Shown one piece after another: positions 4,742 through 22,561 of a stretch of 32,000 bases of DNA (position 1 is its first letter; each line of letters opens with the position of its first letter). The notes under the pieces were generated by a model, which was given only the letters and a program-made list of their open reading frames with translations, had not been told where the DNA came from and did no database searches. The position numbers and the translations under genes were made by a program. This DNA comes from Microcystis aeruginosa NIES-2549. GTDB lineage: Bacteria > Cyanobacteriota > Cyanobacteriia > Cyanobacteriales > Microcystaceae. The DNA is taken from assembly GCF_000981785.2 (NCBI RefSeq), contig NZ_CP011304.1, positions 4,170,001 through 4,202,000 of the forward strand, given 5' to 3'.

Positions 4742-5335
4742 ATGATTGCTTTATCTAACTATAATAATCTCACTCCAGAAGAATATCTTCAGTTTGAAGA
4801 AACCAGTCTCATTAAACATGAATATATCGATGGACAAGTTTACGCCATGGCAGGGACGACGGATACTCATAATATTATCGGACTCAATTTCACTTTTATT
4901 ATTCGTAATCATTTGCGGGGTTCTGGTTGTCGAGTTTATTTTGCCGATGTGAAAGTCAGATTAGAGAAACGTAATCACTTTTATTATCCTGATATTATTG
5001 TCACCTGCGATAACAGAGATAGAGAAACCGCTACCTACAAAAGTTTTCCTAAATTGATTGTTGAAGTTCTCTCCGATTCTACAGAAGCTTTTGACAGGGG
5101 GGATAAATTTAATGATTATCAAACTCTAGAAAGTTTAGAGGAATATGTCTTAGTGAATAGTAAACACCAACGAGTGGAAACTTTTCGACGGGGTGAACAG
5201 GGTTTATGGATTCTGCAAACCTATCAGCAAGAAAGTTTTAGTTTACAGAGTATTAATCTGACGGCATCTTTTCGGGATTTATACGGGGATGTCACCCTAG
5301 AAACGGTTAATTATTCCGTGGAAGAAATAGAATAA
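4742..5335 (+). CDS. Uma2-family (DUF820) putative PD-(D/E)xK endonuclease, intact copy
   Basis: 197 aa. Typical Uma2 pattern: EEYLQFEETSLIKHEYIDGQVYAMAGTTDTHN ... YYPDIIVTC ... PKLIVEVLSDSTEAFDRGDKF..Y..L.SLEEYVLV. Its stop is 1 nt from the stop of the convergent MotB-like gene. Confidence 0.8.
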   Translation: MIALSNYNNLTPEEYLQFEETSLIKHEYIDGQVYAMAGTTDTHNIIGLNFTFIIRNHLRGSGCRVYFADVKVRLEKRNHFYYPDIIVTCDNRDRETATYKSFPKLIVEVLSDSTEAFDRGDKFNDYQTLESLEEYVLVNSKHQRVETFRRGEQGLWILQTYQQESFSLQSINLTASFRDLYGDVTLETVNYSVEEIE

Positions 5336-5336
5336 A

Positions 5337-5978
5337 TCATTGTTTTTTACCGGGGGGAATAAAACGGATTTCAATTCTGCGTCTGCTTGCATCTGCGTCA
5401 CGATTAACCGCAGCTAAGTTACCCGATGGTAGGTATAACTGTCCTGCGGAAAAAGCTCGAAATTTGACGTTTTTGAGTTTACCTGTGTTTTCGATTTCTT
5501 GGACTACTGCTAAAGCTCGCATTAATCCTAAATCAGTGTTAGAACCGGGTACTAGCATTTTAACAGATTGTTTTCTGCTGGCAACCGATTCGATATTTTT
5601 ATCGAGATTACTTGTCTTCTGTATTCCTTGTCCGTCGGTGTGTCCAATTACTTGAATAAAGTCGATTTCTCTGTCTTTGGTAATGGTTTCGATAGCGGGA
5701 ATAATGCGCTGACGAATATGGGTTTTTAAAGCAGGGTTTAATTCAGCACTTCCCGACTGAAATTTAAATTTTCCTGATTTTTCATCGATAACTATGGGGG
5801 TTGCTGTTTGCAGTTTTCGGTTAGCTTCCTCCAGTTTGCTGATGAGATTATAGGACTGAAAAAGTGCCAAGAGGAGAAATAAACTCAGAATCATGAAAGC
5901 ATTGGACATTAAATCGGTAAATGCGGGATAAACATCCACCGATTTATCTTCATCTCGGTAGTAGGTACGTCTAGACAT
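5337..5978 (-). CDS. MotB/OmpA-like (ZorB/ExbD-position) stator subunit: N-terminal TM with a conserved Asp plus an OmpA-type peptidoglycan-binding domain
   Basis: 213 aa. YPAFTDLMSNAFMILSLFLLLAL is a MotB-type plug/TM segment with Asp. The C-terminal half carries OmpA_C-like motifs: FQSGSAEL, VIGHTDGQG, NTDLGLMRALAV, RRRIEIRF. Confidence 0.75.
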   Translation of the reverse strand: MSRRTYYRDEDKSVDVYPAFTDLMSNAFMILSLFLLLALFQSYNLISKLEEANRKLQTATPIVIDEKSGKFKFQSGSAELNPALKTHIRQRIIPAIETITKDREIDFIQVIGHTDGQGIQKTSNLDKNIESVASRKQSVKMLVPGSNTDLGLMRALAVVQEIENTGKLKNVKFRAFSAGQLYLPSGNLAAVNRDADASRRRIEIRFIPPGKKQ

Positions 5979-6000: not shown

Positions 6001-9000
6001 TTATTCAAATAGGGTGTTAATGTCATCCAGAACATCTTTTTGAGGAGGATTAGGGATTGTCTCACAAAGTTTTTCTATCTTATCCTTTAAGTTAGAAAAT
6101 TCAGACTGAACATCTTTTTGAGTAGGATTAGGGATTGTCTCAAAAAGGTTTTTAAGTTCTTCCAACTTCTTATTTAACTTATAAATGTCATCCTGAACAT
6201 CTTTTTGAGGAGGATTAGGGATTGTCTCAAAAAGTTCTTTAAGTTCTTCCATCTTATTATTTAAGTTAGAAAAGTCAGAACGCATATCGTTAATTTTCTC
6301 CAGTTCTGCTAAACATTTTTGAATTTCTCCATAAATATGTTCAATCATTTTCTGATTCGATTTATTTTCCTTAGCGATAACTTTCTCTAACTTATCTCGC
6401 AAAGATTCTAAGTTAGCAGTTAATTGACTGGTGTTGGTGTTCACCGCATCAATTACTTGAGAAAAATCTGATTTAAGGCTGCCAAATTGATTGGCTGTTT
6501 TCTCAATAGATTGGGAAACTGCTTTTAATTGTTCTGAGTTCTTAGTTAATTTATCATCAACTACCATCCCTAAGTTATTGCTTAAAAGGTTTAACTCAGA
6601 CTGTAAGCTTTCCTTGACTTGAGTAAGTTGCTCTGTCACTGTATCAATTAACTGAGACAAGTTAGCATTAGTCACATCGAGATTATTACTAGAGCGCTCA
6701 ATCCCATGGGAAGCTGTGAGGATTTTATCGGAGGTTTGGGAGAGTCTTTCATCGAGACTATTGATAAGTTGGTTTCCTAATTGTTTCGACTCGGAGTTAA
6801 AACTGTCTTGATAGGTTTTCACAGTTTCGATTAATTTTACTAATTCTCCCTGAATGTTAGATAACTTTTCTTGTTCGGTGACTGAGCGTTGCTGATTTTG
6901 TTCTAGGATTTTCTCAGAGACTTGAGTAAGTTGCTCTGTCACTGTATCAATTAACTGAGACAAGTTAGCATTAGTCACATCGAGATTATTACTAGAGCGC
7001 TCAATCCCATGGGAAGCTGTGAGGATTTTATCGGAGGTTTGGGAGAGTCTTTCATCGAGACTATTGATAAGTTGGTTTCCTAATTGTTTCGACTCGGAGT
7101 TAAAACTGTCTTGATAGGTTTTCACAGTTTCGATTAATTTTACTAATTCTCCCTGAATGTTAGATAACTTTTCTTGTTCGGTGACTGAGCGTTGCTGATT
7201 TTGTTCTAGGATTTTCTCAGAGACTTGAGTAAGTTGCTCTGTCACTGTATCAATTAACTGAGACAAGTTAGCATTAGTCACATCGAGATTATTACTAGAG
7301 CGCTCAATCCCATGGGAAGCTGTGAGGATTTTATCGGAGGTTTGGGAGAGTCTTTCATCGAGACTATTGATAAGTTGGTTTCCTAATTGTTTCGACTCGG
7401 AGTTAAAACTGTCTTGATAGGTTTTCACGGTTTCGATTAATTTTACTAATTCTCCCTGAATGTTGGATAACTTTTCTTGTTCGGTGACTGAGCGTTGCTG
7501 ATTTTGTTCTAGGATTTTCTCAGAGACTTGAGTAAGTTGCTCTGTCACTGTATCAATTAACTGAGACAAGTTAGCATTAGTCACATCGAGGTTATTACTA
7601 GAGCGCTCAATCCCGTGGGAAGCAGTGAGAATTTTATCGGAGGTTTGGGAGAGTCTTTGCTCAAGACGATTGATAAGTTGGTTTCCTAATTGTTTCGACT
7701 CGGAGTTAAAACTGTCTTGATAGGTTTTCACAGTTTCGATTAATTTTACTAATTCTCCCTGAATGTTAGATAACTTTTCTTGTTCGGTGACTAAGCGTTG
7801 CTGATTTTGTTCTAGGATTGTCTCAGATTTTTGATTCAAGTCAGTAATTTTTATTCCTAACTCAACCATAGTTGTCATGGAACGCTGGAAGTCTTGAGTT
7901 AAAGAAGCTAGAGATTGAGTTGATTGGTTTAACTCAGACTGTAAGCTTTCCTTGACTTGAGTAACTTGCTCTGTCACTGTATCAATTAACTGAGACAGGT
8001 TAGCATTAGTCACATCTGGATTATTACTAGAGCGCTCAATCCCATGGGAAGCTGTGAGAATTTTATCGGAGGTTTGGGAGAGTCTTTCATCGAGACTATT
8101 GATAAGTTGATTGCCTAATTGTTTCGACTCGGAGTTAAAACTGTCTTGATAGGTTTTCACAGTTTCGATTAATTTTACTAATTCTCCCTGAATGTTAGAT
8201 AACTTTTCTTGTTCGGTGACTGAGCGTTGCTGATTCTGTTCTAGGATTTTCTCAGAGACTTGAGTAAGTTGCTCTGTCACTGTATCAATTAACTGAGACA
8301 AGTTAGCATTAGTCACATCGAGGTTATTACTAGAGCGCTCAATCCCATGGGAAGCTGTGAGGATTTTATCGGAGGTTTGGGAGAGTCTTTCATCGAGACT
8401 ATTGATAAGTTGGTTTCCTAATTGTTTCGACTCGGAGTTAAAACTGTCTTGATAGGTTTTCACAGTTTCGATTAATTTTACTAATTCTCCCTGAATGTTA
8501 GATAACTTTTCTTGTTCGGTGACTGAGCGTTGCTGATTTTGTTCTAGGATTTTCTCAGATTTTTGATTCAAGTCAGTAATTTTTATTCCTAACTCAACCA
8601 TAGTTGTCATTGAACGCTGGAAGTCTTGAGTTAAAGAAGCTAGAGATTGAGTTGATTGGTTTAACTCAGACTGTAAGCTTTCCTTGACTTGAGTAACTTG
8701 CTCTGTCACTGTATCAATTAACTGAGACAGGTTAGCATTAGTCACATCGAGATTATTGCTAGAGCGCTCAATCCCATGGGAAGCTGTGAGGATTTTATCG
8801 GAGGTTTGGGAGAGTCTTTCATCGAGACTATTGATAAGTTGGTTTCCTAATTGTTTCGACTCGGAGTTAAAACTGTCTTGATAGGTTTTCACAGTTTCGA
8901 TTAATTTTACTAATTCTCCCTGAATGTTAGATAACTTTTCTTGTTCGGTGACTGAGCGTTGCTGATTTTGTTCTAGGATTTTCTCAGATTTTTGATTCAA

Positions 9001-9711
9001 GTCAGTAATTTTTATTCCTAACTCAACCATAGTTGTCATTGAACGCTGGAAGTCTTGAGTTAAAGAAGCTAGAGATTGAGTTGATTGGTTTAACTCAGAC
9101 TGTAAGCTTTCCTTGACTTGAGTAAGTTGCTCTGTCACTGTATCAATTAACTGAGACAGGTTAGCATTAGTCACATCGAGATTATTGCTAGAGCGCTCAA
9201 TCCCATGGGAAGCTGTGAGGATTTTATCGGAGGTTTGGGAGAGTCTTTCATCGAGACTATTGATAAGTTGGTTTCCTAATTGTTTCGACTCGGAGTTAAA
9301 ACTGTATTGATAGGTTTTCACGGTTTCGATTAATTTTACTAATTCTCCCTGAATGTTGGATAACTTTTCTTGTTCGGTGACTGAGCGTTGCTGATTTTGT
9401 TCTAGGATTTTCTCAGATTTTTGATTCAAGTCAGTAATTTTTATTCCTAACTCAACCATAGTTGTCATTGAACGCTGGAAGTCTTGAGTTAAAGAAGCTA
9501 GAGATTGAGTTGATTGGTTTAACTCAGACTGTAAGCTTTCCTTGACTTGAGTAAGTTGCTCTGTCACTGTATCAATATTATTACTTAAGCGGTTGACTTT
9601 TTTGGTTGACTCTTGGAGATGTTTATAGAGAGCAATTAAGACGGTGGGAAAAATAACCAAGACTAGAATTAAAAGAATCAGATAGGGAGGAAAAAGGTTA
9701 AGTAATGCCAT
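6001..9711 (-). CDS. Giant single-pass membrane coiled-coil protein made of near-identical tandem modules; its N-terminus is paralogous to the MotA-like gene at 10430-11974
   Basis: 1236-aa uninterrupted ORF. The N-terminal TM MALLNLFPPYLILLILVLVIFPTVLIALYKHLQ is about 90% identical to that of the 541-aa ORF. It is followed by 8 modules of 143/101 aa and a unique C-terminal 230 aa with 3x ETIPNP(P/T)QKDV. The MotA channel helices are absent. Confidence 0.7.
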   Translation of the reverse strand: MALLNLFPPYLILLILVLVIFPTVLIALYKHLQESTKKVNRLSNNIDTVTEQLTQVKESLQSELNQSTQSLASLTQDFQRSMTTMVELGIKITDLNQKSEKILEQNQQRSVTEQEKLSNIQGELVKLIETVKTYQYSFNSESKQLGNQLINSLDERLSQTSDKILTASHGIERSSNNLDVTNANLSQLIDTVTEQLTQVKESLQSELNQSTQSLASLTQDFQRSMTTMVELGIKITDLNQKSEKILEQNQQRSVTEQEKLSNIQGELVKLIETVKTYQDSFNSESKQLGNQLINSLDERLSQTSDKILTASHGIERSSNNLDVTNANLSQLIDTVTEQVTQVKESLQSELNQSTQSLASLTQDFQRSMTTMVELGIKITDLNQKSEKILEQNQQRSVTEQEKLSNIQGELVKLIETVKTYQDSFNSESKQLGNQLINSLDERLSQTSDKILTASHGIERSSNNLDVTNANLSQLIDTVTEQLTQVSEKILEQNQQRSVTEQEKLSNIQGELVKLIETVKTYQDSFNSESKQLGNQLINSLDERLSQTSDKILTASHGIERSSNNPDVTNANLSQLIDTVTEQVTQVKESLQSELNQSTQSLASLTQDFQRSMTTMVELGIKITDLNQKSETILEQNQQRLVTEQEKLSNIQGELVKLIETVKTYQDSFNSESKQLGNQLINRLEQRLSQTSDKILTASHGIERSSNNLDVTNANLSQLIDTVTEQLTQVSEKILEQNQQRSVTEQEKLSNIQGELVKLIETVKTYQDSFNSESKQLGNQLINSLDERLSQTSDKILTASHGIERSSNNLDVTNANLSQLIDTVTEQLTQVSEKILEQNQQRSVTEQEKLSNIQGELVKLIETVKTYQDSFNSESKQLGNQLINSLDERLSQTSDKILTASHGIERSSNNLDVTNANLSQLIDTVTEQLTQVSEKILEQNQQRSVTEQEKLSNIQGELVKLIETVKTYQDSFNSESKQLGNQLINSLDERLSQTSDKILTASHGIERSSNNLDVTNANLSQLIDTVTEQLTQVKESLQSELNLLSNNLGMVVDDKLTKNSEQLKAVSQSIEKTANQFGSLKSDFSQVIDAVNTNTSQLTANLESLRDKLEKVIAKENKSNQKMIEHIYGEIQKCLAELEKINDMRSDFSNLNNKMEELKELFETIPNPPQKDVQDDIYKLNKKLEELKNLFETIPNPTQKDVQSEFSNLKDKIEKLCETIPNPPQKDVLDDINTLFE
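6031..6235. repeat. Three copies of a 34-nt box (encodes the ETIPNPPQKDV motif) at the 3' end of the giant gene
   Basis: aacatctttttgag(g/t)aggattagggattgtctca starts at 6031, 6109 and 6196 (spacing 78 and 87 nt). Confidence 0.75.
6590..9575. repeat. In-frame tandem array: 8 units of 303 nt or 429 nt, nearly identical
   Basis: The anchor GACTTGAGTAA(G/C)TTGCTCTGTCACTG occurs at 6616, 6919, 7222, 7525, 7954, 8257, 8686, 9115 and 9544. Spacings are 303,303,303,429,303,429,429,429 nt. Confidence 0.9.
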
Positions 9712-9895
9712 GATAGTTATTGGATACCTCGAATTGTGGTTGATAGAGAGAGTTGGGGGTGAATGTTTCCTCAGATAGCTGGGGAAACATCATTAAGATT
9801 AATAAATTTTATCATTCATCAGTAGTGCTAACCTCTCCGGGTAAACTGGGTTGACTACTGTTATTGTTTGTTCCCAGTAAAGTTTGTTGCTTTTT
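9585..9895. repeat. Segmental duplicate (copy 2) of 11831-12158: the 5' end of the MotA-like gene, the spacer and the last 28 codons of the tubulin-like gene
   Basis: By eye it aligns at roughly 90-95% identity with 11831-12158. Differences include a 15-nt indel and a G5 versus G7 run. Confidence 0.85.
9812..9895 (-). pseudogene. Remnant of the 3' end of the tubulin-like gene (last ~28 codons plus stop)
   Basis: The reverse complement reads ...QQTLLGTNNNSSQPSLPGEVSTTDE*, matching the C-terminus of the 12077-15220 product (…LLGTNNNSSQPSLPAEVSTTDE*). Confidence 0.8.
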
Positions 9896-9909
9896 CAACG
9901 ATTAAACCC

Positions 9910-10419
9910 ATGATTGCTTTATATAGCTATAATAATCTCACTCCAGAAGAATATCTTCAGTTTGAAGAAACCAGTCTCATTAAACATGAATATATCGATG
10001 GACAAGTTTACGCCATGGCAGGGACGACGGATACTCATAATATTGTTTTGGGGAATATATACACAATTATTTGTAATCATTTGCGGGGGTCCGATTGTCG
10101 GGTTTATTTTGCCGATGTGAAAGTCAGATTAGAGAAACGCAATCACTTTTATTATCCTGATATTATTGTCACCTGCGATGACAGAGATAGAGAAACCGCT
10201 ACCTACAAAAGTTTTCCTAAATTGATTGTTGAAGTTCTCTCCGATTCTACAGAAGCTTTTGACAGGGGGGATAAATTTAATAATTATCAAACTCTAGAAA
10301 GTTTAGAGGAATATGTCTTAGTGAATAGTAAACACCAACGAGTGGAAACTTTTCGACGGGGTGAACAGGGTTTATGGATTCTGCCGATTTATCTTCATCT
10401 CGGTAGTAGGTACGTCTAG
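9910..10419 (+). pseudogene. 3'-truncated second copy of the Uma2 endonuclease gene, fused to antisense MotB-like sequence
   Basis: 9910-10384 parallels 4742-5216, with the protein identical except around residues 45-55. After ...GEQGLWIL the frame runs into the reverse complement of the MotB-like start (PIYLHLGSRYV*). The TTG-initiated extension from 9868 in the ORF track is tubulin-remnant sequence. Confidence 0.75.
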
Positions 10420-10423
10420 ACAT
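10385..10423 (-). pseudogene. 13-codon 5' remnant of a MotB/OmpA-like gene
   Basis: The reverse complement encodes MSRRTYYRDEDKS, identical to 5940-5978. Its ATG lies 6 nt after the stop of the MotA-like gene. The rest of the gene is deleted. Confidence 0.8.
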
Positions 10424-10429
10424 AGTTAC

Positions 10430-11974
10430 TTAGAATGGTTTTTTGATACTATCAGATACTTGATTGATTTCTTTTTCCATCTCAGATAAAAAAGAATTTT
10501 TCTGTTGATTGCTAAGGTTAATAATTTGGTTTAAGATGGCTTGTATATCTCTGAGATAACTGACTGTTTGCTGACTTTTCTCAGCAATAATTTCTCCTTG
10601 ATAATTATTACGGCCAACTTCTTGAGAAATTAATCGACTTAACCGGTCACCTAAAGCAGTTAATTGGTCTGAGTTATTGTTAATATTGTGAGTAGTTTCT
10701 AATAAGTTGTTTTGGATTGACTGAAGAGAAATAAGTAGTTGTTCAGTCCTTTCATTGAGAACAATGTTTAAATTTTGACTTTCTTTACGAATTGATAGAG
10801 AAGACTGTCCTAAATTTTTAATTTCCGCTTCTACGCTTACCAAGCTTTTGAAAGTATTATGAACATTATCTGTTGCTTGACTCATCAATTTAGTTAAACT
10901 ATCTATATGTTCCACTGTTAGACATAACTTAGCATGAGTAGAATATAACTTTTCAGAAGTTGCGACTAAATTATCAGTAACTTGACTATTAACTAATTTA
11001 TCAACTGTCGATTTAAAGTTACTAATGCAGTTATCCAAACTCTGACCATATTTAACAAAGTTTTCGTGGTGAATTGCTTTATATAATTTGTTGACATTTT
11101 CTTCAAAACTATTGGTAGAACTCTTAAAAGTCGTCGCACCGGTAGATAAAGTTCCTGCGGTTTCAGTTAATCTTTCACAAACCTGAGTGACTAATTTAGC
11201 AGTTTCCTGATTACCATCATCAATTTTTTTAGCAACTTTCTCTAAAGAAGATTCTAATACTCTCGTCACCTCATTATGAAAGTTAGTCAGAAATGCTTGC
11301 TGTGTATCCACCATGCGATTAACCGCTTTATCCAAGCGACTATTCCCTTCTACAGTCGGCTGCAAGATATTATCTAAATAGTCTTCTAGGGAACTAATTA
11401 GATTTACTTTAGCAAGGTTGGTATTAAAGATTAAGTTAATCACAGTCAGCAAAGAACTACAAGCTAAACCAATTAAGCTAGTGATAAAAGCAATCCCCAT
11501 GCTTTCTAGGGGAGTTTTGAGCTTTTCTCCTAAACTTTGCAAATCGACATTATTAATATCGATAAGTGTGCTGATTCCCGTCAGATTGAGAGTAATTCCG
11601 AAGAAAGTTCCCAACAAACCAAAAGCGAGGAGGAGATTGGGTAACACTCTTACAAAATAATCCCATTTTTCGCAACTGAGAGATTTAGACATGAAAGTAA
11701 ATTGTTCTTCATGGTATAAACCATCTACCAAAGCTGCGGTATTAACATCATCTAGTTGACTACTGGCTATCTTAAATCTATTCTCTAGATTAGAGATAAT
11801 TTTAGGTTGAACCCCGCGACTTTCTCCCCGAATTAAGCGCTTGACTTTTGCAGTTGAATCTTGGAGATGTTTATAGAGAGTCATCCGGATTCTCACAGCT
11901 AAGACGGTGGGAAAAATAACCAAGACTAGAGTTAAAACAATCAGATAGGGGGGAAAAAGGTTAAGTAATGCCAT
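10430..11974 (-). CDS. MotA/TolQ/ExbB-family proton-channel protein with a ~330-aa C-terminal coiled-coil tail (ZorA-like architecture)
   Basis: TM1 is LFPPYLIVLTLVLVIFPTVL. The channel signature is LLLAFGLLGTFFGITLNL ... SMGIAFITSLIGLACSSLLTVINLIF (compare ExbB/TolQ GLFGTVWGI ... GIAEALIATAIGL). A long heptad-rich tail follows. I chose the start at MALLNLF (11974) because the paralogue at 9711 starts there; the ORF is also open to 12055. Confidence 0.75.
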   Translation of the reverse strand: MALLNLFPPYLIVLTLVLVIFPTVLAVRIRMTLYKHLQDSTAKVKRLIRGESRGVQPKIISNLENRFKIASSQLDDVNTAALVDGLYHEEQFTFMSKSLSCEKWDYFVRVLPNLLLAFGLLGTFFGITLNLTGISTLIDINNVDLQSLGEKLKTPLESMGIAFITSLIGLACSSLLTVINLIFNTNLAKVNLISSLEDYLDNILQPTVEGNSRLDKAVNRMVDTQQAFLTNFHNEVTRVLESSLEKVAKKIDDGNQETAKLVTQVCERLTETAGTLSTGATTFKSSTNSFEENVNKLYKAIHHENFVKYGQSLDNCISNFKSTVDKLVNSQVTDNLVATSEKLYSTHAKLCLTVEHIDSLTKLMSQATDNVHNTFKSLVSVEAEIKNLGQSSLSIRKESQNLNIVLNERTEQLLISLQSIQNNLLETTHNINNNSDQLTALGDRLSRLISQEVGRNNYQGEIIAEKSQQTVSYLRDIQAILNQIINLSNQQKNSFLSEMEKEINQVSDSIKKPF

Positions 11975-12158
11975 GATAGTTATTGGATACCTCGAATTGT
12001 GGTTGATAGAGAGAGTTGGGGGGGTGAATGTTTCCTGAGATAGCTGGGGAAACATTATTAAGATTGCTCAATTTTATCATTCATCAGTAGTGCTAACCTC
12101 TGCGGGTAAACTGGGTTGACTACTGTTATTATTTGTTCCCAGTAAACTTTGTTGCTTT
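11831..12158. repeat. Segmental duplicate (copy 1) matching 9585-9895
   Basis: See 9585-9895. It spans the tubulin-like stop (12077), the spacer and the first ~45 codons of the MotA-like gene. Confidence 0.85.
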
Positions 12159-15100
12159 TGCTGTTGTTTTTCGAGTTTTTTCTGTTCACCAGTACGTTTT
12201 TCTAGTTCCATTTTCAGTTGATTAACAAAACGGGTGATAATTCCTTCTTTTGCCTCCTGTTGAGTATTTCCATCTTGTCCAGCTACCTTATCTTTGTAGC
12301 GATAATTGGGGTGATAGGAGGGTAAATTTTTGACATTGTTGACAAAATAGCTGACGTTCTGGAAATAATCACCCTCGTTAGTAAATAATAGGGTAGGATT
12401 AGCCAAAATCTCATTTTTTGCCTGATTAAGCAGTATCTGCAAAGCATTAATCATGTCATTACGAGAAGCAAATTGTTCTAAGGCAAGTCGCCAATTACCG
12501 CTAATGTCAATGATGGACTTATTGTTAAATAAATCGCCTTCGATGACTAATTGATAAGTATCATCTTCCTCATCGTATTCTAGTAAACCGAGAGCAATTG
12601 CGGGATAGAAAATAAACTCTAATTCCTCAATTAATTTGGCAGGTGGTGGAATAATATCAGCAAAATCTATCCTGTAATCATTGTGTAAAATGCTGATTCT
12701 TTTTTGGTCTTGATAGATTTGTTGCAACCCAGATAAATCAGTAATGATTCTTAGGGGAAACCCACCAAACTCGTAGGTAATTAGGATTTCTTCGTCGGTT
12801 TGAATTGATTTAAAAGAAGTTCCCTTAATATTTAAATCAGATTCAAGAGTCTTCATAAATCTTTGCATGGTGGGTGAATTATCATCCTTAGTCCCAATTA
12901 GTAATGCTTTATCTGTATGCAAGCGATAGTAAGCATCATTAACATTTATCGGTAACATTAAATCAGCTTCTCGCAGAATTTGCGCCAAGCGTTCAGGAAA
13001 ATCATGGGGTTTATATTGACCCATAAATCGCTTAATTACTGCATCAATTTTATTAGTGCTTACTGATTGAAACTGTTTCTCGATTGTAGCTGTTAGAGTC
13101 TCTTTGAGAGTCTCATTATCAATAACAAAAGATTGGCTAAATAAACTGAATAGGGAAGCATTATAGCCTAAATTATTGGTGACTTTTTGGCTAACGGAAA
13201 TGTATTGAGTTCGGGAGTTACTGTCCGGGATACAGTTATCAATATTCTCCTCTGGAAAAATACCTTCCCCAGTCATCTCGTCGAGATTTAACTGCATTAA
13301 CTCCTGTTCGTATTTATCGTATTCTGTGATTAGCTGATATAGGGATTCTTTCAGTTGTTGTATCTGCAGCATTCGACTGGAAATATGCTTGAGAATCGCT
13401 TCAACAATCTTTCTAGATTCGCGATTGATACTGAAATTAAAGTTCTGCTGAATTAATTTTTGTCCGCTTTGAACGTAGTCTCTTAACTCAGCTTTGATTC
13501 TCTCACTATTGGCATTTTTATTGAACATCTTGAAGACAGACTTTTTCCCGTTTATATCTTCGAGAGTTTGTTTAACATTTCGCCAAATGTTATCAATTTT
13601 TTCCGAGGAATGAAACCCTTTATTATCCTGAGATAATTCCTCTAGATTCCCCTTGTAGGTATTAATCTGTACTTGTAAAGCGACCAAAAAAGATAGGCTA
13701 TTTTCCAAAGAAAATTCTAAGCTATCAGGATTAAGAAGAATCTCCAAAAATTGGTCAATATCTGACTTAAATTTTTCGATTAATTTAGGTTGAGTTTGTT
13801 GGGTCAGAGTTAACCAGATTCCACGACTGCTATCCGTTTCTCCCCCCTGTACTTTGCGAAACTCTTTTTCTAGGGATTGCTTGACGGTTTGGGGTAAATT
13901 CTCCAAATCTTGACTATTGGATATTTCTTCCTCTAGGGAATTTTTCCAAGAGGTTAAAGTCTTGGAAAAAGTTTTATTATTCTCTAGGGTTGCTTCTTCC
14001 AATCTGGCAGTAAAATAATCCTTATTACTTTGGGTACTCCAATTAGCTAGGAACTTACTTAATAACTCTTGTCCACTGGGACTTTGACCATATCCCTCTA
14101 ACCAAAATTTAATTAATTTGAGACTAAAACGATTGAGACCAATCTGCACAATTCGGTCGCGAGTAAAATAAATCCTCGCTAGTCCAAAGGACATATAACC
14201 TTGACACATCTGAAAAGGATGATTATCTTTACGAATCATCGGGTCTTTATAGTTATCCCGATTGCTTTTGATGGGGAGAGATAACTCATCGGCAAAATCC
14301 AAGAAAATCTTGTAAGCAATGACATTACATAATTTACCTTTGTTATTAATCCGGTAATCTCCCGCAGTGCGATTAGAAACTAAGTAGGCAAAATCAAAAG
14401 GAGAACGTTTTTCATCGATGTGGACGAAATTTTGTTTATCATAACAGGCTTGAAAGGAATTACTTTCATTGGTATAATGATCTAACTCTTTCAAAGCTGC
14501 ATAGGTATTAGCTCTCATAATTGCCCCATCACCATAAAGTTTAGGACTAATTACCAAATAACCAAAGGATGTATATTCGGCCGTTTGTTGTAAAATATGA
14601 CGCAAAGTGTAGGCCACATCGAGGAAAATACCGCTACCAGTTCCCCCACACAAAGAACCGACAACAAAGACATTTAAACCCTCTTGGACATTAAAACTTT
14701 GACCGTTAACTTTACCGCTAAACATAAAGGATTCATGACCAGAAGTTCGTCTTTCCGCTGCTTCAATTGCCTCCTGAATTTTTTGATAGTTATGGAAGAA
14801 AGCTAAACGACCGACGGGACGAATACCTCCCGCACCATTTTCAATGGCAGTTATTTGTTTTTTTAGTCTTGGGTCTAACCAGCTTTCAATATGGGAAAAG
14901 GGACTTTCAAAAAGGGTTTTGTGTTCAAGTTCATAGGTGAGATTGTTAACATCCTGAGCATTCATATTAATGAATACTCTTTCAGCAGCTGATAGAAGAA
15001 TTTCTTCTCCGTGATAGCTATTTCCTGTGGGTAAACCCGAACCATTGAAAGCGTTTTTGTCTGTGTCAATATGAACAAAACTGACAACGGGTAGGTTAGA

Positions 15101-15220
15101 TAACTTCCCATACTTATCAATAATAAAGCGACGAATTCTCATTAACACATCTCGACCAGTACCACCTAATCCGATGATAATTGTCCGTTTGATAGCGCGG
15201 GTTTGACTGGTGTTAGCCAT
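12077..15220 (-). CDS. Large tubulin/FtsZ-superfamily GTPase (Pfam Tubulin_2 / FtsZl-1-like) with a ~700-aa C-terminal extension
   Basis: 1047 aa. T1-type loop TIIIGLGGTGRDV at residues 13-25. Tubulin signature GGTGSG in VFVVGSLCGGTGSGIFLDVAY. The C-terminal two thirds are helical/coiled-coil and end in a Q/K-rich low-complexity tail. AGGAG lies about 10 nt upstream of the ATG. Confidence 0.8.
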   Translation of the reverse strand: MANTSQTRAIKRTIIIGLGGTGRDVLMRIRRFIIDKYGKLSNLPVVSFVHIDTDKNAFNGSGLPTGNSYHGEEILLSAAERVFINMNAQDVNNLTYELEHKTLFESPFSHIESWLDPRLKKQITAIENGAGGIRPVGRLAFFHNYQKIQEAIEAAERRTSGHESFMFSGKVNGQSFNVQEGLNVFVVGSLCGGTGSGIFLDVAYTLRHILQQTAEYTSFGYLVISPKLYGDGAIMRANTYAALKELDHYTNESNSFQACYDKQNFVHIDEKRSPFDFAYLVSNRTAGDYRINNKGKLCNVIAYKIFLDFADELSLPIKSNRDNYKDPMIRKDNHPFQMCQGYMSFGLARIYFTRDRIVQIGLNRFSLKLIKFWLEGYGQSPSGQELLSKFLANWSTQSNKDYFTARLEEATLENNKTFSKTLTSWKNSLEEEISNSQDLENLPQTVKQSLEKEFRKVQGGETDSSRGIWLTLTQQTQPKLIEKFKSDIDQFLEILLNPDSLEFSLENSLSFLVALQVQINTYKGNLEELSQDNKGFHSSEKIDNIWRNVKQTLEDINGKKSVFKMFNKNANSERIKAELRDYVQSGQKLIQQNFNFSINRESRKIVEAILKHISSRMLQIQQLKESLYQLITEYDKYEQELMQLNLDEMTGEGIFPEENIDNCIPDSNSRTQYISVSQKVTNNLGYNASLFSLFSQSFVIDNETLKETLTATIEKQFQSVSTNKIDAVIKRFMGQYKPHDFPERLAQILREADLMLPINVNDAYYRLHTDKALLIGTKDDNSPTMQRFMKTLESDLNIKGTSFKSIQTDEEILITYEFGGFPLRIITDLSGLQQIYQDQKRISILHNDYRIDFADIIPPPAKLIEELEFIFYPAIALGLLEYDEEDDTYQLVIEGDLFNNKSIIDISGNWRLALEQFASRNDMINALQILLNQAKNEILANPTLLFTNEGDYFQNVSYFVNNVKNLPSYHPNYRYKDKVAGQDGNTQQEAKEGIITRFVNQLKMELEKRTGEQKKLEKQQQKQQSLLGTNNNSSQPSLPAEVSTTDE

Positions 15221-15237: not shown

Positions 15238-16362
15238 TTATTTTTTGCTAATCTGAATTTGTAGGTCGAAATCTTGATGGTTATGGTGATAGGTTAAAGT
15301 CAGGTAATTTTTATCTATCTTCACCTCCTGAGTTAGTTGATTACCTCGATAAAAAATCTCTGCTTGTTTACTGGGTTTCAGATATAACTGATTGCCGCGT
15401 CTTTCTAAATAGCAGCGAATTTCTTCCCCAGCACGAGAAAAGGTATTCTTCTTATGTTCTTCACCACCGATGTTAATTTTTCCAGATGTTTTTAAAATAT
15501 ATTTTTGGGTTTCATCTTCATCATCATTAGAGGAGACTTCAATAGTCCAAGCAGTATTTAACAGCAACCAGTGACGAATTCCCAAAATACTCGCTACTAT
15601 TCCCCCAATTCCCATTAATGTAATTACCAATGCTGGCAACCATAACTGACTCAAGAGATAAGGATTAATCAAACAGGTTTCTTGTCCTCCCGGTGCGGGA
15701 GTACAAAACTCTTGTGCTGTGGGAGCAATATCGACAACTGATAGTTGATATTTATTGCCGTTAGTGGCGGTAATTTCTTGGGTTCTTAGATTAATTGGTA
15801 GGGAATTAAGCCAGTTTTGTCTCTCCAAACTTTCGGGAGAATCAGCAAGACGAAAAGGGCTATTTTTTGGGGTTTCTATCCACTGTTGGGAAGTAATCCC
15901 CGCGCCAGTAGAAAGGGGTGCATCGGTAATCCAAACTACCGACTGGGGTTTGATAGCTTGATTGGCAGTTAAACGACACTGATTTAAGCGTGCCAGTCGG
16001 GGATAAACGTGCCATTCTGCTTGCTGAATATCGGTATTTTTAGCACTTTGGCTAGATTGCCAGGGAATCGCCTTTAAAACCGCGTCTATATCTTCCTGAC
16101 TCCGAATTAAAATCGGTTCTGCAATCGGTTGAACATTATCAGCAAAGGGGAATAAATAAACGGAATCGTTATTTTTTAAACTATCGCGAATAATTTGACC
16201 GAGGCGCGTGCGTCCTTCATCATTAAAGTTAACACTACCGGTAAGATCGATCGCTAGGATAACATCTCGTCCCTGCCAACGAGCCACCAAATCTAATCCG
16301 AGTTTTTGCCAATCAGTAAGCGGTTCCCCGGGGGATACCGTTAAACATTCAGCACTTTTCAT
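15238..16362 (-). CDS. vWA-domain protein with a central TM helix and a C-terminal beta-rich (degenerate FHA-like) domain
   Basis: 374 aa. The MIDAS-like start of a vWA fold is VILAIDLTGSVNFNDEGR ... SVYLFPFADNV ... VVWITDAPL. The TM is LWLPALVITLMGIGGIVASILGI. The tail YILKTSGKINIGGEE...IRCYLERRGNQLYLKP...IFYRGNQL resembles an FHA topology but lacks the canonical R/S/H residues. The stop is 17 nt before the tubulin-like start. Confidence 0.65.
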   Translation of the reverse strand: MKSAECLTVSPGEPLTDWQKLGLDLVARWQGRDVILAIDLTGSVNFNDEGRTRLGQIIRDSLKNNDSVYLFPFADNVQPIAEPILIRSQEDIDAVLKAIPWQSSQSAKNTDIQQAEWHVYPRLARLNQCRLTANQAIKPQSVVWITDAPLSTGAGITSQQWIETPKNSPFRLADSPESLERQNWLNSLPINLRTQEITATNGNKYQLSVVDIAPTAQEFCTPAPGGQETCLINPYLLSQLWLPALVITLMGIGGIVASILGIRHWLLLNTAWTIEVSSNDDEDETQKYILKTSGKINIGGEEHKKNTFSRAGEEIRCYLERRGNQLYLKPSKQAEIFYRGNQLTQEVKIDKNYLTLTYHHNHQDFDLQIQISKK

Positions 16363-20359: not shown

Positions 20360-20698
20360 TTATGGCTCTGATTCTAGGTTAAACTCAATCCGGCTCTGTA
20401 AAACCATTTCTGCAATTACCGCTCCTCCTTTACCTTGAGCTAAAACCCGCTCAAAACGGTTGATTAATTCGGGAATATTGATCACTTCCTCTACCGATTC
20501 TAGATATCTTTCGACAATTGCCCTGATCTTGTATCTTATCTTAGCTTGCTCCGCAACTTTTTCTAAAATTTCCTCGCAAGTCTGCTCGGTTTTAACCACA
20601 AAAGTAATGGGATATTTTTGCACTTTATCAATATCTAAAAAATATTTATCAGCAGCTATCGTTTCCGTAACTTGAAAAAATCGACCTAGGGGTTTCAT
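20360..20698 (-). CDS. ORF fragment: probable C-terminal part of the adjacent restriction endonuclease (split gene or pseudogene), otherwise hypothetical
   Basis: 112 aa with no recognisable family on its own. It is in the same frame as 20756-21478 and is separated from it only by one TAA plus 19 sense codons. Confidence 0.45.
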   Translation of the reverse strand: MKPLGRFFQVTETIAADKYFLDIDKVQKYPITFVVKTEQTCEEILEKVAEQAKIRYKIRAIVERYLESVEEVINIPELINRFERVLAQGKGGAVIAEMVLQSRIEFNLESEP

Positions 20699-20755
20699 GA
20701 CAAAATCTATCCCCCCGTCATTGGCATTTGTTCGACCAGTTTTATATAAAAGTAA

Positions 20756-21478
20756 TTATTCAGAGTTTAAGCGATCAGGCGACCATCCCCAATATATTTT
20801 CTGTTCCCCATAATACTCTTTAAGAATTGCATAACTGACAATCTCAAAAACTCTAGCATCAATGTTTGGTCTGAGTAAACTCCGAATAAATTCAATGGCT
20901 TTCTGGGGATCTTGCTGTTGAATATCAATCATCTGTTGACAATAGCTGATAAATTGATTAAATGCTTTTTGTCTTGTTTGCACATAGGCATCAATTATAT
21001 CTATAATCACTGGCGCAATATTAACTTGATTACCCTCTAGATAAAACTTAATTAGATTCTCATTAATCCAGTATCTATTGGTTTTAACATCTCTAATTAT
21101 CGGCAGATAAGATAAGGTGGGAAAATACTTGTTAAATTCCTGATTTAATCGATGATTGAGAGCATGATTTTGTAATTTATTGCCAAAAGGAAGCTCCCTT
21201 TGCCTGCGAAAAAGTGTCATATACTGAGCGCCTTGATACTCGTCGTATCCATCCTTAAGATGAAACTCATTATTAATATAGTCTTCCACTAAAACATAAA
21301 TTGCATAATGGTTAGCCAATCCTGCTCGGGATTTAGAACCTCGATTAGCAGCTCTAGTTTTAATGTTCAAATATTGCAATAACTCACTAGCATTTAAAAT
21401 ACTATTTCCCTGATTAGGAAAGTAATTATCGATAATTTTAATAATTATCTTGGTGAATTCATGCTTTACTATCGACAT
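20756..21478 (-). CDS. Putative type II restriction endonuclease, N-terminal fragment (ends inside an Mrr-like PD-(D/E)xK core)
   Basis: The start at MSIVKHEF (21478) overlaps the upstream methyltransferase stop by 20 nt. The C-terminus ...DARVFEIVSYAILKEYYGEQ... resembles the first helix of Mrr-type nuclease domains. The role assignment is mainly positional. Confidence 0.5.
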   Translation of the reverse strand: MSIVKHEFTKIIIKIIDNYFPNQGNSILNASELLQYLNIKTRAANRGSKSRAGLANHYAIYVLVEDYINNEFHLKDGYDEYQGAQYMTLFRRQRELPFGNKLQNHALNHRLNQEFNKYFPTLSYLPIIRDVKTNRYWINENLIKFYLEGNQVNIAPVIIDIIDAYVQTRQKAFNQFISYCQQMIDIQQQDPQKAIEFIRSLLRPNIDARVFEIVSYAILKEYYGEQKIYWGWSPDRLNSE

Positions 21479-22352
21479 CGAAAAGACTCTCCTGTACAAA
21501 GTTAGATTCTTGTTTATTTTCGCTTTTTCTACTATAGCTTTTTTGAGGAGGGAGTAACTTTTCTCCCTTGTATTCTTGCCATCCGAGAATCCGTCGAAGA
21601 CCAATTTTTAAATACTGCTCTTGTAATTCTATACTAATAGAAATTCTTCCCAAACGTTTAGCTACAGCTGCAGATGTAAAAGTTCCTGCAAATGGATCAA
21701 GCACAATTCCACTCTTGTCAGTGCTGGCCAAAATAATTCTTTCTAGCAATGATTCAGGTTTTTGTGAAGGATGATTTTCGTATTCATCCATGCGATATCT
21801 GACCCTAGGGAAATACCAGACATTGCCCGGCACTTTCTCTGTATTGTATTGACTCGGAATCGCTTTTCTATAATCAATTAGTTTTCGTTTTGCTCCAGTT
21901 TTTGCTTCTATCTTAATATCCTTTGAATTAAAAGTGTAATTATTTTTATCTTTCACACAGTGAAGTATTGGTTCATACATCGAACCAAAGTATTTTGTTG
22001 CTTGTACTCCTGAACTATCATAATGCCAGATAATACGACTAAGAATCGTCATTTTTTGTCTTAAGTAAAGATCAAAGTAAGGCATTGCTTGAGTGCTGGC
22101 CATAACATATAATGTTCCCTGGGGTTTCAAGATACGAAGACACTGATCAAGAATTTGATTTGCCCAATTTATATAATCATTTTCCGATTCCCATTTGTCG
22201 TAAAAATCGGCAAAGTGCTTACCTATATTATAGGGAGGATCGAGAAAAATTAGATCTACAGAATTAGAGGCAATCTCACTGGATAAAATCGGCAAAGAAT
22301 CACCATGAAATATAACTTGCTCATCAGCTTCGTATCGTTTAAACATGATCAT
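21459..22352 (-). CDS. Beta-class DNA amino-methyltransferase (N6-adenine or N4-cytosine)
   Basis: 297 aa. Motif IV LIFLDPPYN is near the N-terminus and motif I VLDPFAGTFTSA is near the C-terminus, which is the IV-before-I order of beta-class MTases. Confidence 0.85.
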   Translation of the reverse strand: MIMFKRYEADEQVIFHGDSLPILSSEIASNSVDLIFLDPPYNIGKHFADFYDKWESENDYINWANQILDQCLRILKPQGTLYVMASTQAMPYFDLYLRQKMTILSRIIWHYDSSGVQATKYFGSMYEPILHCVKDKNNYTFNSKDIKIEAKTGAKRKLIDYRKAIPSQYNTEKVPGNVWYFPRVRYRMDEYENHPSQKPESLLERIILASTDKSGIVLDPFAGTFTSAAVAKRLGRISISIELQEQYLKIGLRRILGWQEYKGEKLLPPQKSYSRKSENKQESNFVQESLFDVDSKA

Positions 22353-22561
22353 TTTTTTAATTTAAAGTAGTTAGATTTTTACTAGGAAATGTCTCAATTT
22401 TTAACCTCCTTAGCGATTAGGATAATTGACAGACTTTATCATAAATATGAAGTATAACCTAATTTGGTATTGATGACCGACTTCTGACGACAGACTCCCC
22501 ACAACAAAAACTTGGATTTTTAAGCCTTTAAATATTTTAATATGAGTCAGTATCCCGCAGT

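What the first reader, a model, noticed from the sequence alone, without database searches (positions are those of the whole stretch)
12077..15220. 1047-aa tubulin-superfamily protein with intact GTP-binding loops and a huge non-tubulin C-terminal region
Both hallmark loops are present in the right order and spacing: T1-like IIIGLGGTGRDV at residues ~15-25 and the T4 signature GGTGSG at about residue 190. Only the first ~350 aa can be the GTPase/polymerisation core. The remaining ~700 aa are helical with coiled-coil stretches (for example QLKESLYQLITEYDKYEQELMQLNLDE) and end in a K/Q/E-rich tail (EKRTGEQKKLEKQQQKQQSLL). The last 28 codons are duplicated 2.2 kb downstream. Proteins of this type are annotated only as 'tubulin-like' and lack a defined function.
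Basis: partly seen in the sequence, partly recalled or inferred. Interest (0 to 1): 0.7.

Follow-up and report, generated by a model that had tools for sequence, protein, structure and literature searches.

The report
Known tubulin-like GTPase beside Zorya-like motor
This Microcystis gene encodes a member of the already described but still uncharacterised FtsZl1 "tubulin-like" GTPase family, and the new point is that in cyanobacteria (and one Deinococcus plasmid checked) it sits in a conserved operon with a membrane motor resembling the ZorAB motor of the Zorya anti-phage system.

Summary
The interpretation also holds. Pfam Tubulin_2 matches at E=3e-99, and a confident AlphaFold2 model (pLDDT 85) finds only tubulin/FtsZ-superfamily proteins as its top PDB matches (CetZ, tubulins, BtubA, FtsZ, TubZ).

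It is not new. This is the FtsZl1 family of Makarova and Koonin (2010), and the long helical C-terminal region is the family norm. About 4100 representative clusters match, most 1000-1200 aa long.

Two results go beyond the literature I could search:
- The gene lies in a collinear four-gene cassette found in 62 of 84 cyanobacterial loci.
- Two cassette partners are closest to Zorya ZorA and ZorB, with the ion-path residues invariant. One Deinococcus plasmid carries the same pairing.

The C-terminal 400 residues have no solved structural relative. I propose a peptidoglycan-anchored, ion-driven motor whose cytoplasmic tail couples to GTP-dependent FtsZl1 assembly. Whether that serves envelope remodelling or phage defence is unresolved. 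The duplication belongs to a strain-specific rearrangement of the ZorA-like gene.

The parts
12077..15220 (-). FtsZl1 (Pfam Tubulin_2) gene, 1047 aa
   Evidence: ORF. PF13809 E=2.8e-99. Full-length orthologs across cyanobacteria. AF2 model pLDDT 85.
14096..15220 (-). Residues 1-375: tubulin/FtsZ-fold GTP-binding domain. T1 is G17-G22, T3 is G129-R138, T4 is G192-G197. The R321-D322-N323 loop is a candidate T7.
   Evidence: Foldseek top hits are CetZ, tubulin, BtubA, FtsZ and TubZ and phage FtsZ/tubulin. Motifs are invariant across phyla. T3 and T4 align to E. coli FtsZ.
13277..14095 (-). Residues 376-648: helical bundle followed by one 80-residue helix (568-647)
   Evidence: Secondary structure of the AF2 model. 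Matches the coiled-coil middle region described for FtsZl1.
12080..13276 (-). Residues 649-1047: conserved alpha/beta C-terminal region with no solved structural relative. The last ~20 residues are disordered.
   Evidence: Invariant residues F821, P822, L823, R824, H846, P858 and W910. Separate AF2 model. Foldseek best E=0.49.
15238..16362 (-). Upstream partner, 374 aa: vWA-like domain with MIDAS-type residues, one hydrophobic segment (236-264), and a ~110-aa C-terminal domain
   Evidence: Weak VWA_2 hit, E=0.02, below cutoff. D39-x-T41-x-S43, D111 and D147 (nearly invariant) in 19 orthologs. Only 17 nt separate it from the FtsZl1 start. Collinear in 62 of 84 loci.
10430..12055 (-). ZorA-like motor subunit: three hydrophobic segments plus a coiled-coil tail. 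The true start is probably Met28 at 11974, giving 514 aa.
   Evidence: PADLOC ZorA1 E=2.2e-16. Core profile hits Shewanella ZorA 8vvn_C at E=2e-5 and E. coli ZorA. T150 and S193 are invariant. TM segments.
5337..5978 (-). ZorB/MotB-like subunit, 213 aa: TM helix with invariant Asp22 and an OmpA-type peptidoglycan-binding domain
   Evidence: PADLOC ZorB1 E=2.2e-9. Profile hits ZorB 8vvn_B at E=9e-6, 8vvi_A and PomB. D22 and the GHTD, SNxDLGLMR and RRRIEIRF motifs are invariant.
6001..9711 (-). 1236-aa ORF: remnant or second copy of the ZorA-like gene. It has the first ~42 residues (TM1), lacks the membrane core, and carries a tandemly amplified tail.
   Evidence: blastp against the single 734-aa gene of a 97%-identical strain. 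One hydrophobic segment only. Window 6919-9525 maps repeatedly onto L001 14523-14961.
9585..9894 (.). Downstream copy of the direct repeat (3' end of the FtsZl1 gene, spacer, 5' end of the ZorA-like gene)
11833..12159 (.). Upstream (original) copy of the direct repeat
9868..10419 (+). Uma2-family endonuclease gene inside the duplicated segment. It is not part of the conserved cassette.
   Evidence: PF05685 E=1.3e-38. Absent from this position in related strains.

Best explanation
The gene encodes the FtsZl1 (Tubulin_2) subunit of a conserved four-gene, envelope-associated machine. The gene order is vWA-like membrane protein, FtsZl1, ZorA-like subunit, ZorB-like subunit.

Shown here:
- Residues 1-375 have the tubulin/FtsZ fold, with invariant T1, T3 and T4 nucleotide-binding loops.
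- The remaining ~670 residues are a conserved helical and alpha/beta region typical of the family, with no solved relative.
- The four genes are collinear across cyanobacterial orders in unrelated genomic neighbourhoods.
- The two downstream partners are closest to the Zorya ZorA and ZorB proteins.
- They keep the Asp (D22), the two polar ion-path residues (T150, S193) and the OmpA-type peptidoglycan-binding motifs.

Inferred:
- FtsZl1 binds GTP in the cytoplasm and probably self-assembles.
- The ZorA/ZorB-like proteins form a peptidoglycan-anchored, ion-driven 5:2 motor with a long cytoplasmic coiled-coil tail.
- As in Zorya, where the ZorA tail recruits cytosolic effectors, the tail couples motor or envelope state to FtsZl1 assembly at the membrane.
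- The vWA-like protein acts as a metal-dependent adaptor or anchor.

The output (local membrane/envelope remodelling or an anti-phage response) is not resolved.

My confidence by step: family identity about 0.95, functional partnership with the ZorAB-like pair about 0.8, tail-to-FtsZl1 coupling about 0.3.
For: - Family: PF13809 E=2.8e-99. The architecture matches the FtsZl1 description. 4107 representative clusters, most 1000-1200 aa.
- Fold: AF2 pLDDT 85.3. All top PDB matches are tubulin/FtsZ superfamily. Phage FtsZ/tubulin match in BFVD.
- Motifs: invariant T1, T3 and T4 across Cyanobacteriota, Armatimonadota and Sericytochromatia. T3 and T4 align with E. coli FtsZ.
- Operon: gaps of 17 and 21 nt. 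The cassette is collinear in 62 of 84 loci, and the rest are mostly contig ends or split ORFs. Flanking genes differ between genera.
- ZorA-like: PADLOC E=2.2e-16. In the PDB the core profile's five best hits are all ZorA chains, and no other motor subunit appears at E<=1.
- ZorB-like: 8vvn_B E=9e-6. PDB identities confirmed in PMC11890865.
- Residue equivalences were read from the alignments, with invariance. The roles of ZorB Asp26, ZorA Thr147/Ser184 and the tail come from PMC11946911.
- Independent recurrence: on a Deinococcus deserti plasmid the FtsZl1 gene is followed by a ZorA-like gene (PADLOC 1.6e-7; hhalign to the cyanobacterial core 93%, E=2.8e-7) and a ZorB-like OmpA gene.
Against: - No experiment exists for any FtsZl1 protein in the papers I could search.
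- A T7-type catalytic residue is not secure. D322 is Asn in three of the 14 sequences aligned. Makarova and Koonin could not identify T6-H7 or the FtsZ C-terminal domain. Polymerisation is therefore an assumption.
- The ZorA-like hit to NCBIfam ZorA is far below the curated cutoff (33 bits against 100). The Pfam MotA_ExbB hit is also below cutoff.
- The 5:2 stoichiometry and the tail bundle are inferred by homology only.
- The vWA assignment is weak. Only 3 of 19 orthologs hit VWA_2, all below cutoff, and the protein's membrane topology is ambiguous.
- Most distant FtsZl1 genes I sampled lack ZorAB-like partners. The coupling may therefore be peculiar to some clades.
Confidence: 0.5

Rival explanations
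1. Housekeeping membrane or envelope remodelling. FtsZl1 would be a non-division cytoskeletal GTPase, as originally proposed. It would shape or repair the cytoplasmic membrane or envelope, with the PG-anchored motor supplying energy or position. There would be no role in conflict with phages.
For: - This is the interpretation of Makarova and Koonin.
- The cassette is conserved and collinear across Nostocales, Oscillatoriales, Pleurocapsales, Chroococcales and Trichodesmium. That pattern is more typical of a vertically inherited cellular function than of a patchy defence system.
- Neighbours are housekeeping genes: prfC and an acyltransferase, psbEFLJ in Cyanothece and Nostoc.
- PADLOC has no model matching FtsZl1 or the vWA-like protein.
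Against: - The closest characterised relatives of the motor pair work in phage defence.
- The ZorA-like tail differs sharply between Microcystis strains (59% identity against 96-98% for neighbouring genes) and is tandemly amplified here.
- Distant FtsZl1 genes sit beside caspase, CHAT, TPR and BrxL genes.
Confidence: 0.3
2. Anti-phage or conflict system: in effect a new Zorya-like type. The ZorAB-like motor would sense envelope perturbation during infection. FtsZl1 with the vWA-like protein would replace ZorC/D as the cytosolic arm and form GTP-dependent assemblies that block infection or cause dormancy or death.
For: - The motor pair is closest to ZorAB. The Zorya mechanism relies on the tail recruiting effectors.
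- Kaur et al. 2020 place tubulin homologs with C-terminal coiled-coil or helical domains, plus vWA proteins, in GTPase-centric conflict systems.
- Family members sit in defence-like contexts elsewhere.
- The tail is hypervariable and amplified among Microcystis strains.
Against: - No ZorC, D, E, F or G homolog and no nuclease is present in the cassette.
- Broad, collinear, apparently vertical conservation in cyanobacteria is unusual for defence systems.
- The family is essentially absent from phage genomes, so no counter-defence signal is visible.
- There is no experimental evidence.
Confidence: 0.3
3. TubZ-like DNA segregation or replicon maintenance: the tubulin-like protein would form filaments that partition DNA.
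For: TubZ is among the structural matches. Some family members are on megaplasmids.
Against: - The gene is chromosomal in Microcystis and other cyanobacteria.
- The cassette has no small DNA-binding TubR-like gene.
- All partners are membrane or peptidoglycan proteins.
- CetZ, tubulins and FtsZ score as well as or better than TubZ.
Confidence: 0.03
4. Non-polymerising nucleotide-binding scaffold: the tubulin-like domain would bind GTP as a switch without forming filaments.
For: T6-H7 and the C-terminal activation domain were not identified. The candidate T7 Asp is not invariant. The C-terminal region is not FtsZ_C-like.
Against: Strict conservation of T1, T3 and T4 and of a helix-loop after the core helix. 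The whole ~375-aa domain aligns to complete CetZ/FtsZ chains.
Confidence: 0.15

Closest known systems
FtsZl1 family (Makarova and Koonin 2010, Biol Direct 5:33; Pfam PF13809 Tubulin_2)
   Same: - A full-length Pfam match.
[quoted passage not shown]
- vWA and OmpA genes in the operon.
- A cyanobacterial clade is already part of the family.
   Different: Nothing essential differs; this is an ortholog. New here:
- A confident structure model that confirms the fold.
- The previously unnamed operon partner together with the 'OmpA' gene forms a ZorAB-like motor pair.
- The cassette's conservation across cyanobacteria has been quantified.
Zorya anti-phage systems (ZorAB motor plus ZorC/D, ZorE or ZorF/G)
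   Same: - A ZorA-like subunit with hydrophobic segments and a long variable coiled-coil tail.
- A ZorB-like subunit with the essential Asp and an OmpA-type PG-binding domain.
- The polar ion-path residues are conserved.
- ZorA and ZorB are the closest solved relatives.
   Different: - No ZorC, D, E, F or G is present. The cytosolic partners are a tubulin-like GTPase and a vWA-like membrane protein.
- Scores are below NCBIfam's curated ZorA cutoff.
- The cassette is widely and collinearly conserved in one phylum rather than patchy.
- No defence phenotype is known.
CetZ / FtsZ / tubulin / BtubAB / TubZ (canonical tubulin superfamily, PF00091)
   Same: The overall fold of residues 1-375 and the T1, T3 and T4 nucleotide loops.
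   Different: - PF00091 scores below its cutoff (24 bits against 33).
- Sequence profiles do not reach any PDB tubulin or FtsZ.
- TM-scores are only about 0.5.
- There is a large insert between S2/S3 and T3.
- No recognisable FtsZ_C or Tubulin_C domain, and the T7 loop is uncertain.
- About 670 extra C-terminal residues.
GTPase-centric conflict systems with tubulin homologs (Kaur, Burroughs, Iyer and Aravind 2020, eLife 9:e52696)
   Same: A tubulin domain fused to C-terminal coiled-coil or alpha-helical domains and linked to vWA proteins. The Sericytochromatia relative sampled here has an HSP70/GrpE/DnaJ-like/vWA context.
   Different: The cyanobacterial cassette has no GAP1-type GTPase, HSP70 or FNIII protein. 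That paper does not mention MotA, ExbB or Zor-type partners (term counts).

Membership tests
FtsZl1 / Pfam Tubulin_2 (PF13809) | Match to the family profile above the curated cutoff, over the full profile | tested here: met
   333 bits against a cutoff of 27; profile positions 1-355 of 356; residues 14-370
FtsZl1 / Pfam Tubulin_2 (PF13809) | [quoted passage not shown] | tested here: met
   AF2 secondary structure. Relatives are mostly 1000-1200 aa. Family description.
FtsZl1 / Pfam Tubulin_2 (PF13809) | Signature GTP-binding loop GGGTG(S/T)G (T4) and the T1 loop | tested here: met
   CGGTGSG at 191-197 and GLGGTG at 17-22, invariant across 84 cyanobacterial and 3 non-cyanobacterial sequences
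FtsZl1 / Pfam Tubulin_2 (PF13809) | Operon with a vWA-domain protein | tested here: inconclusive
   The upstream gene has conserved MIDAS-type residues. However, VWA_2 hits are below cutoff and occur in only 3 of 19 orthologs.
Canonical FtsZ/tubulin (PF00091 plus FtsZ_C or Tubulin_C) | PF00091 match above cutoff | tested here: not met
   24.4 bits against a cutoff of 33; residues 183-250 only
Canonical FtsZ/tubulin (PF00091 plus FtsZ_C or Tubulin_C) | Tubulin/FtsZ GTPase-domain fold | tested here: met
   Foldseek probability 1.00 to CetZ, tubulins, BtubA, FtsZ and TubZ
Canonical FtsZ/tubulin (PF00091 plus FtsZ_C or Tubulin_C) | T7 synergy loop with a catalytic acidic residue, and the C-terminal activation domain | tested here: inconclusive
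   The candidate R-D-N loop at 321-323 has D replaced by N in three of the 14 sequences aligned. Residues 648-1047 are not FtsZ_C-like.
Canonical FtsZ/tubulin (PF00091 plus FtsZ_C or Tubulin_C) | GTP-dependent polymerisation | not testable with these tools
   Needs biochemistry or multimer modelling
Zorya defence system | ZorA: MotA/ExbB-like membrane core with polar ion-path residues and a long coiled-coil tail | tested here: met
   PADLOC ZorA1 E=2.2e-16. PDB ZorA chains are the five best hits. T150 and S193 are invariant. Tail length ranges 445-751 aa. The score is below the NCBIfam cutoff.
Zorya defence system | ZorB: TM helix with the essential Asp, plus a PG-binding domain | tested here: met
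   D22 invariant in the FTDLMS motif; GHTD, SNxDL and RRRIEI motifs invariant. Best PDB hits are ZorB chains.
Zorya defence system | Type-specific cytosolic effectors ZorC/ZorD, ZorE or ZorF/ZorG | tested here: not met
   No PADLOC hit for the FtsZl1 or vWA-like proteins, and no other Zor model hit in the neighbourhood
Zorya defence system | 5:2 stoichiometry, ion-driven rotation, protection against phage | not testable with these tools
   Needs cryo-EM and infection assays
TubZ/TubR plasmid partition | Adjacent TubR-type DNA-binding adaptor and centromere, on a plasmid or phage | tested here: not met
   Chromosomal locus. Partners are membrane proteins. Almost no phage homologs.

The most novel reading that the evidence does not exclude
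The cyanobacterial vWA-like / FtsZl1 / ZorA-like / ZorB-like cassette (with the Deinococcus equivalent) would be a previously unrecognised class of ZorAB-type motor system. In it, a peptidoglycan-anchored ion-driven rotary motor signals through its coiled-coil tail to a tubulin-superfamily GTPase instead of to nucleases. That would make it either a new Zorya-like anti-phage system present across cyanobacteria or a motor-coupled prokaryotic cytoskeletal device for envelope surveillance.
Probability: 0.3. Interest if true: 0.8.

Novelty: new member of a known kind. Interest (0 to 1): 0.45.

Why it matters
FtsZl1 is one of the most divergent branches of the tubulin/FtsZ superfamily. It has had no experimental characterisation in the papers I could search since its description in 2010. 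Two published guesses compete: membrane remodelling and conflict system.

Recognising that its conserved partners in cyanobacteria form a ZorAB-like motor pair yields concrete, testable hypotheses:
- Mutate the ZorB-like Asp22.
- Truncate the ZorA-like tail.
- Mutate the FtsZl1 T4 loop, then look for shared phenotypes and co-localisation.

The link would also extend ZorAB-type motors beyond nuclease-based defence. Microcystis is a major bloom-former under heavy phage pressure, so a widely conserved envelope-linked system there would have ecological interest. As a sequence finding, however, the gene itself is an ordinary ortholog of a known family.

Tried and rejected
- **Displaced FtsZ C-terminal domain.** I asked whether the C-terminal alpha/beta region (residues 648-1047) is a displaced FtsZ-type activation domain. 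The separate AF2 model had no significant PDB match (best E=0.49, probability at most 0.14). The idea is rejected. In isolation only residues ~857-1027 stay confident.
- **Sequence-only searches of the PDB.** Neither the protein nor the 84-sequence profile found any tubulin or FtsZ. The relationship is visible only through Pfam and structure.
- **hhalign against E. coli FtsZ.** Probability was low (5%). I used it only to map T3 and T4.
- **FHA-like domain in the vWA-like protein.** The C-terminal domain looked FHA-like by eye, but the profile search of the PDB gave only insignificant ribosomal eS4 hits. Not supported.
- **Word-based homolog search with the ZorA-like core.** It reached only cyanobacteria and could not test the wider distribution. 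Plasmid annotations were used instead.
- **Deinococcus upstream gene.** The 418-aa protein is not homologous to the cyanobacterial vWA-like protein.
- **Promoter and terminator scan.** Uninformative: fewer promoter-like sites than in shuffles, and the terminator-like sites are repeat copies on the non-coding strand.
- **PADLOC and NCBIfam.** Neither gave a hit for FtsZl1 itself.
- **TubZ-like partition role.** Rejected on context grounds.
- **Model coordinates.** They are not exposed to scripts. I therefore could not make domain-level superpositions to settle whether residues 256-375 form a reduced activation domain.


Full report
**1. Observation**

The ORF at 12077-15220 lies on the minus strand and encodes 1047 aa.
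- IIIGLGGTGRDV at residues 14-25
- GGTGSG at 192-197
- the quoted helical stretch at 622-648
- the K/Q/E-rich tail at 1007-1027

The duplication of the last 28 codons is real but part of a larger direct repeat. Window 9637-9894 matches 11900-12159 at 95% identity, and 9585-9632 matches 11833-11880 at 90%. The start-to-start spacing is about 2265 nt.

**2. Identity**

Pfam Tubulin_2 (PF13809) matches residues 14-370 over the whole profile, at E=2.8e-99. The canonical Tubulin/FtsZ model PF00091 scores only 24 bits, below its cutoff of 33. PF13809 corresponds to the FtsZl1 family of Makarova and Koonin 2010. That paper describes:
- an extended coiled coil and an alpha-helical C-terminal domain, for example a 1051-aa founding member
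- operons with vWA and OmpA genes and unnamed partner families
- a vertically inherited cyanobacterial clade

The authors could not identify T6-H7 or an FtsZ-type C-terminal domain.

The window comes from Microcystis, whose genomes match at 95-98%. Full-length orthologs at 41-97% identity occur across cyanobacteria. NCBI names them 'tubulin-like domain-containing protein'. An exhaustive HMMER search finds 4107 representative clusters at E<=1e-3, most 1000-1200 aa long. The 'huge non-tubulin C-terminal region' is therefore the family norm.

**3. Fold test**

An AlphaFold2 model built from an 84-sequence alignment is confident, with mean pLDDT 85.3 and pTM 0.70. All 50 listed Foldseek matches in the PDB belong to the tubulin/FtsZ superfamily. 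They are led by CetZ2 (E=4e-7, target TM 0.50) and CetZ1 (0.52), followed by tubulins, BtubA, FtsZ (0.48) and TubZ, over about 360-380 columns. Phage FtsZ and tubulin match in BFVD. The fold is therefore tubulin/FtsZ-like and not a generic Rossmann or P-loop fold.

Sequence methods alone do not see this relationship.

Three non-cyanobacterial members were aligned (Armatimonadota, Sericytochromatia and an unnamed metagenome contig). Across these and the cyanobacterial sequences the invariant residues are:
- T1: G17, G19, G20, G22
- T3: G129, A130, R134, G137, R138
- T4: S189, G192-G195, G197
- N238, A242, E245

T3 and S4-T4 align with E. coli FtsZ GAGANPEVGR and GGGTGTG. An R-D-N loop at 321-323 follows the putative core helix, where FtsZ has T7. 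Its Asp is Asn in three of the 14 sequences aligned, so catalytic competence in a polymer is unresolved.

**4. The C-terminal ~670 residues**

The model shows:
- a helical bundle at 376-560
- one 80-residue helix at 568-647
- a conserved alpha/beta region at 650-1026
- a disordered end

I tested whether the alpha/beta part is a displaced FtsZ activation domain. A separate model of residues 648-1047 has no significant PDB match. The idea is rejected, and the region has no solved relative.

**5. Genomic context**

The gene sits in a tight minus-strand cluster:

| Window coordinates | Product |
|---|---|
| 15238-16362 | 374-aa vWA-like membrane protein |
| 12077-15220 | FtsZl1 |
| 10430-12055 | ZorA-like protein |
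| 5337-5978 | ZorB/MotB-like protein |

In four other genomes the same four genes are adjacent while everything around them differs. Across 84 cyanobacterial loci the order vWA-like, FtsZl1, ZorA-like, ZorB-like is exact in 62. Nearly all exceptions are contig ends or split ORFs.

*ZorA-like protein*
- It has three hydrophobic segments and a coiled-coil tail.
- It hits PADLOC ZorA models at up to E=2.2e-16.
- A profile of its core finds ZorA chains as its five best PDB hits (Shewanella type I at E=2e-5, then four E. coli ZorA chains). No other motor subunit appears at E<=1.
- In that alignment E. coli ZorA Thr147 and Ser184, the ion-selectivity residues, correspond to the invariant T150 and S193.

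*ZorB-like protein*
- It carries an invariant Asp22 in FTDLMS at the start of its TM helix.
- It has invariant OmpA-type motifs.
- Its best PDB hits are ZorB chains, then PomB.

*vWA-like protein.* It conserves D39-x-T41-x-S43, T110/D111 and D147. Its Pfam support is weak.

**6. Beyond cyanobacteria**

Sampled distant family members have other partners:
- Armatimonadota: none recognisable.
- Sericytochromatia: GrpE, HSP70, DnaJ-like, vWA and TPR.
- Other metagenome contigs: a histidine kinase and response regulator; a caspase and TPR.
- Nostoc punctiforme plasmid: CHAT, caspase, vWA and TPR.
- Thermus plasmid: vWA, BrxL and an exonuclease.

On a Deinococcus deserti plasmid, however, FtsZl1 is followed by two relevant genes. 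The first is a ZorA-like protein (PADLOC 1.6e-7; hhalign to the cyanobacterial core 93%, E=2.8e-7). The second is a ZorB-like OmpA protein with the AFSDLM motif. The pairing therefore recurs in a second phylum. It probably explains the 'OmpA' association noted in 2010.

**7. Literature**

No held paper links FtsZl1 or tubulin-like proteins with ZorAB or MotA-type motors. Kaur et al. 2020 place tubulin homologs with C-terminal coiled-coil or helical domains, plus vWA, GTPase and HSP70 proteins, among conflict systems. They do not mention MotA or ExbB partners. Santana-Molina et al. 2023 used Tubulin_2 proteins only as an outgroup.

**8. Mechanism**

*Shown:* fold, nucleotide loops, operon conservation, partner identities, and conservation of the ion-path and PG-binding residues.

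*Inferred by analogy with Zorya:*
- The ZorA/ZorB-like pair forms a PG-anchored, ion-driven motor with a cytoplasmic tail.
- The tail communicates with the cytosolic FtsZl1 GTPase.
- FtsZl1 assembles at the membrane with help from the vWA-like protein.

Whether the output is envelope remodelling or phage defence is open.
- Wide collinear conservation and housekeeping neighbours favour remodelling.
- The Zorya kinship, defence-like contexts elsewhere and a fast-evolving tail favour defence.

**9. The duplication**

A 97%-identical strain has a single 734-aa ZorA-like gene and no Uma2 gene at this position. In the window:
- The 541-aa gene is only 59% identical overall to that gene, although its membrane core reads as near-identical by eye. 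It probably starts at Met28 and is then 514 aa.
- The 1236-aa ORF keeps only the first ~42 residues plus a tail.
- The tail region 6919-9525 is about 7-8 tandem copies of a 303-439-nt unit.
- Strain NIES-4325 shares the window's allele, and its contig ends close to the edge of the Uma2 gene.

It is not a feature of the tubulin-like gene.

**10. Verdict**

Observation confirmed and interpretation supported. The gene is an ordinary ortholog of a family described in 2010, so it is a new member of a known kind. The moderate interest rests on two points: the family remains uncharacterised, and the ZorAB-like partnership appears not to have been described.

Noticed in passing
window 6001-12159: A strain-specific rearrangement of the ZorA-like gene. 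An intact 514/541-aa allele (10430-12055) is followed by a Uma2 gene. Then comes a 1236-aa ORF that keeps only TM1 plus a tail, in which a 303-439-nt unit is tandemly amplified about 7-8 times (6919-9525). Related Microcystis strains have one gene of 662-738 aa. The tail is far more divergent between strains than the neighbouring genes (59% against 96-98%).
   Followed up: yes
window 10430-12055: The listed ORF starts 27 codons upstream of the start used by its orthologs and by the duplicated copy (MALLNLFPPY...). The real start is probably Met28 at 11974. That leaves a ~100-nt spacer after the FtsZl1 stop, as in strain L001.
   Followed up: partly
window 4742-5335 and 9868-10419: Two plus-strand Uma2-family endonuclease genes flank or interrupt the cassette. 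The second also hits PADLOC candidate family PDC-S03 (E=1e-33). Uma2 genes also lie next to the cassette in Cyanothece and on the Nostoc punctiforme plasmid.
   Followed up: no
window 15238-16362 (residues 217-264 and 265-374): The vWA-like protein has an invariant Cys pair (C220, C230) just before its hydrophobic segment and basic residues just after it. It has no signal peptide, so its membrane topology is ambiguous. The C-terminal ~110 aa form a conserved domain with no detectable relative.
   Followed up: partly
window 20360-26186: By synteny with strain L001 and by ORF sizes, the genes between prfC and the 671-aa ABC transporter probably include two DNA methyltransferases (DNA_methylase and N6_N4_Mtase families) and a 372-aa unknown. 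This may be a restriction-modification cluster.
   Followed up: no
proteins P0338-P0386: A separate family of ~365-aa cyanobacterial proteins, mostly from Pleurocapsales, shares the ZorA-like membrane core at 46-51% identity. NCBI annotates them as 'methyl-accepting chemotaxis protein'. Their context was not examined.
   Followed up: no
L002 / L010 (Cyanothece sp. BG0011), about 4-6 kb downstream of the cassette, opposite strand: Short ORFs similar to the ZorB-like (159 aa) and ZorA-like (176 and 118 aa) proteins. They suggest a second, fragmented copy of the motor pair.
   Followed up: no
BFVD entry A0A141HS93: An unnamed 986-aa viral protein is the top viral Foldseek hit to the full-length model (E=5e-5, 698 aligned columns), but the TM-score is only 0.10. 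It probably reflects long-helix similarity.
   Followed up: no
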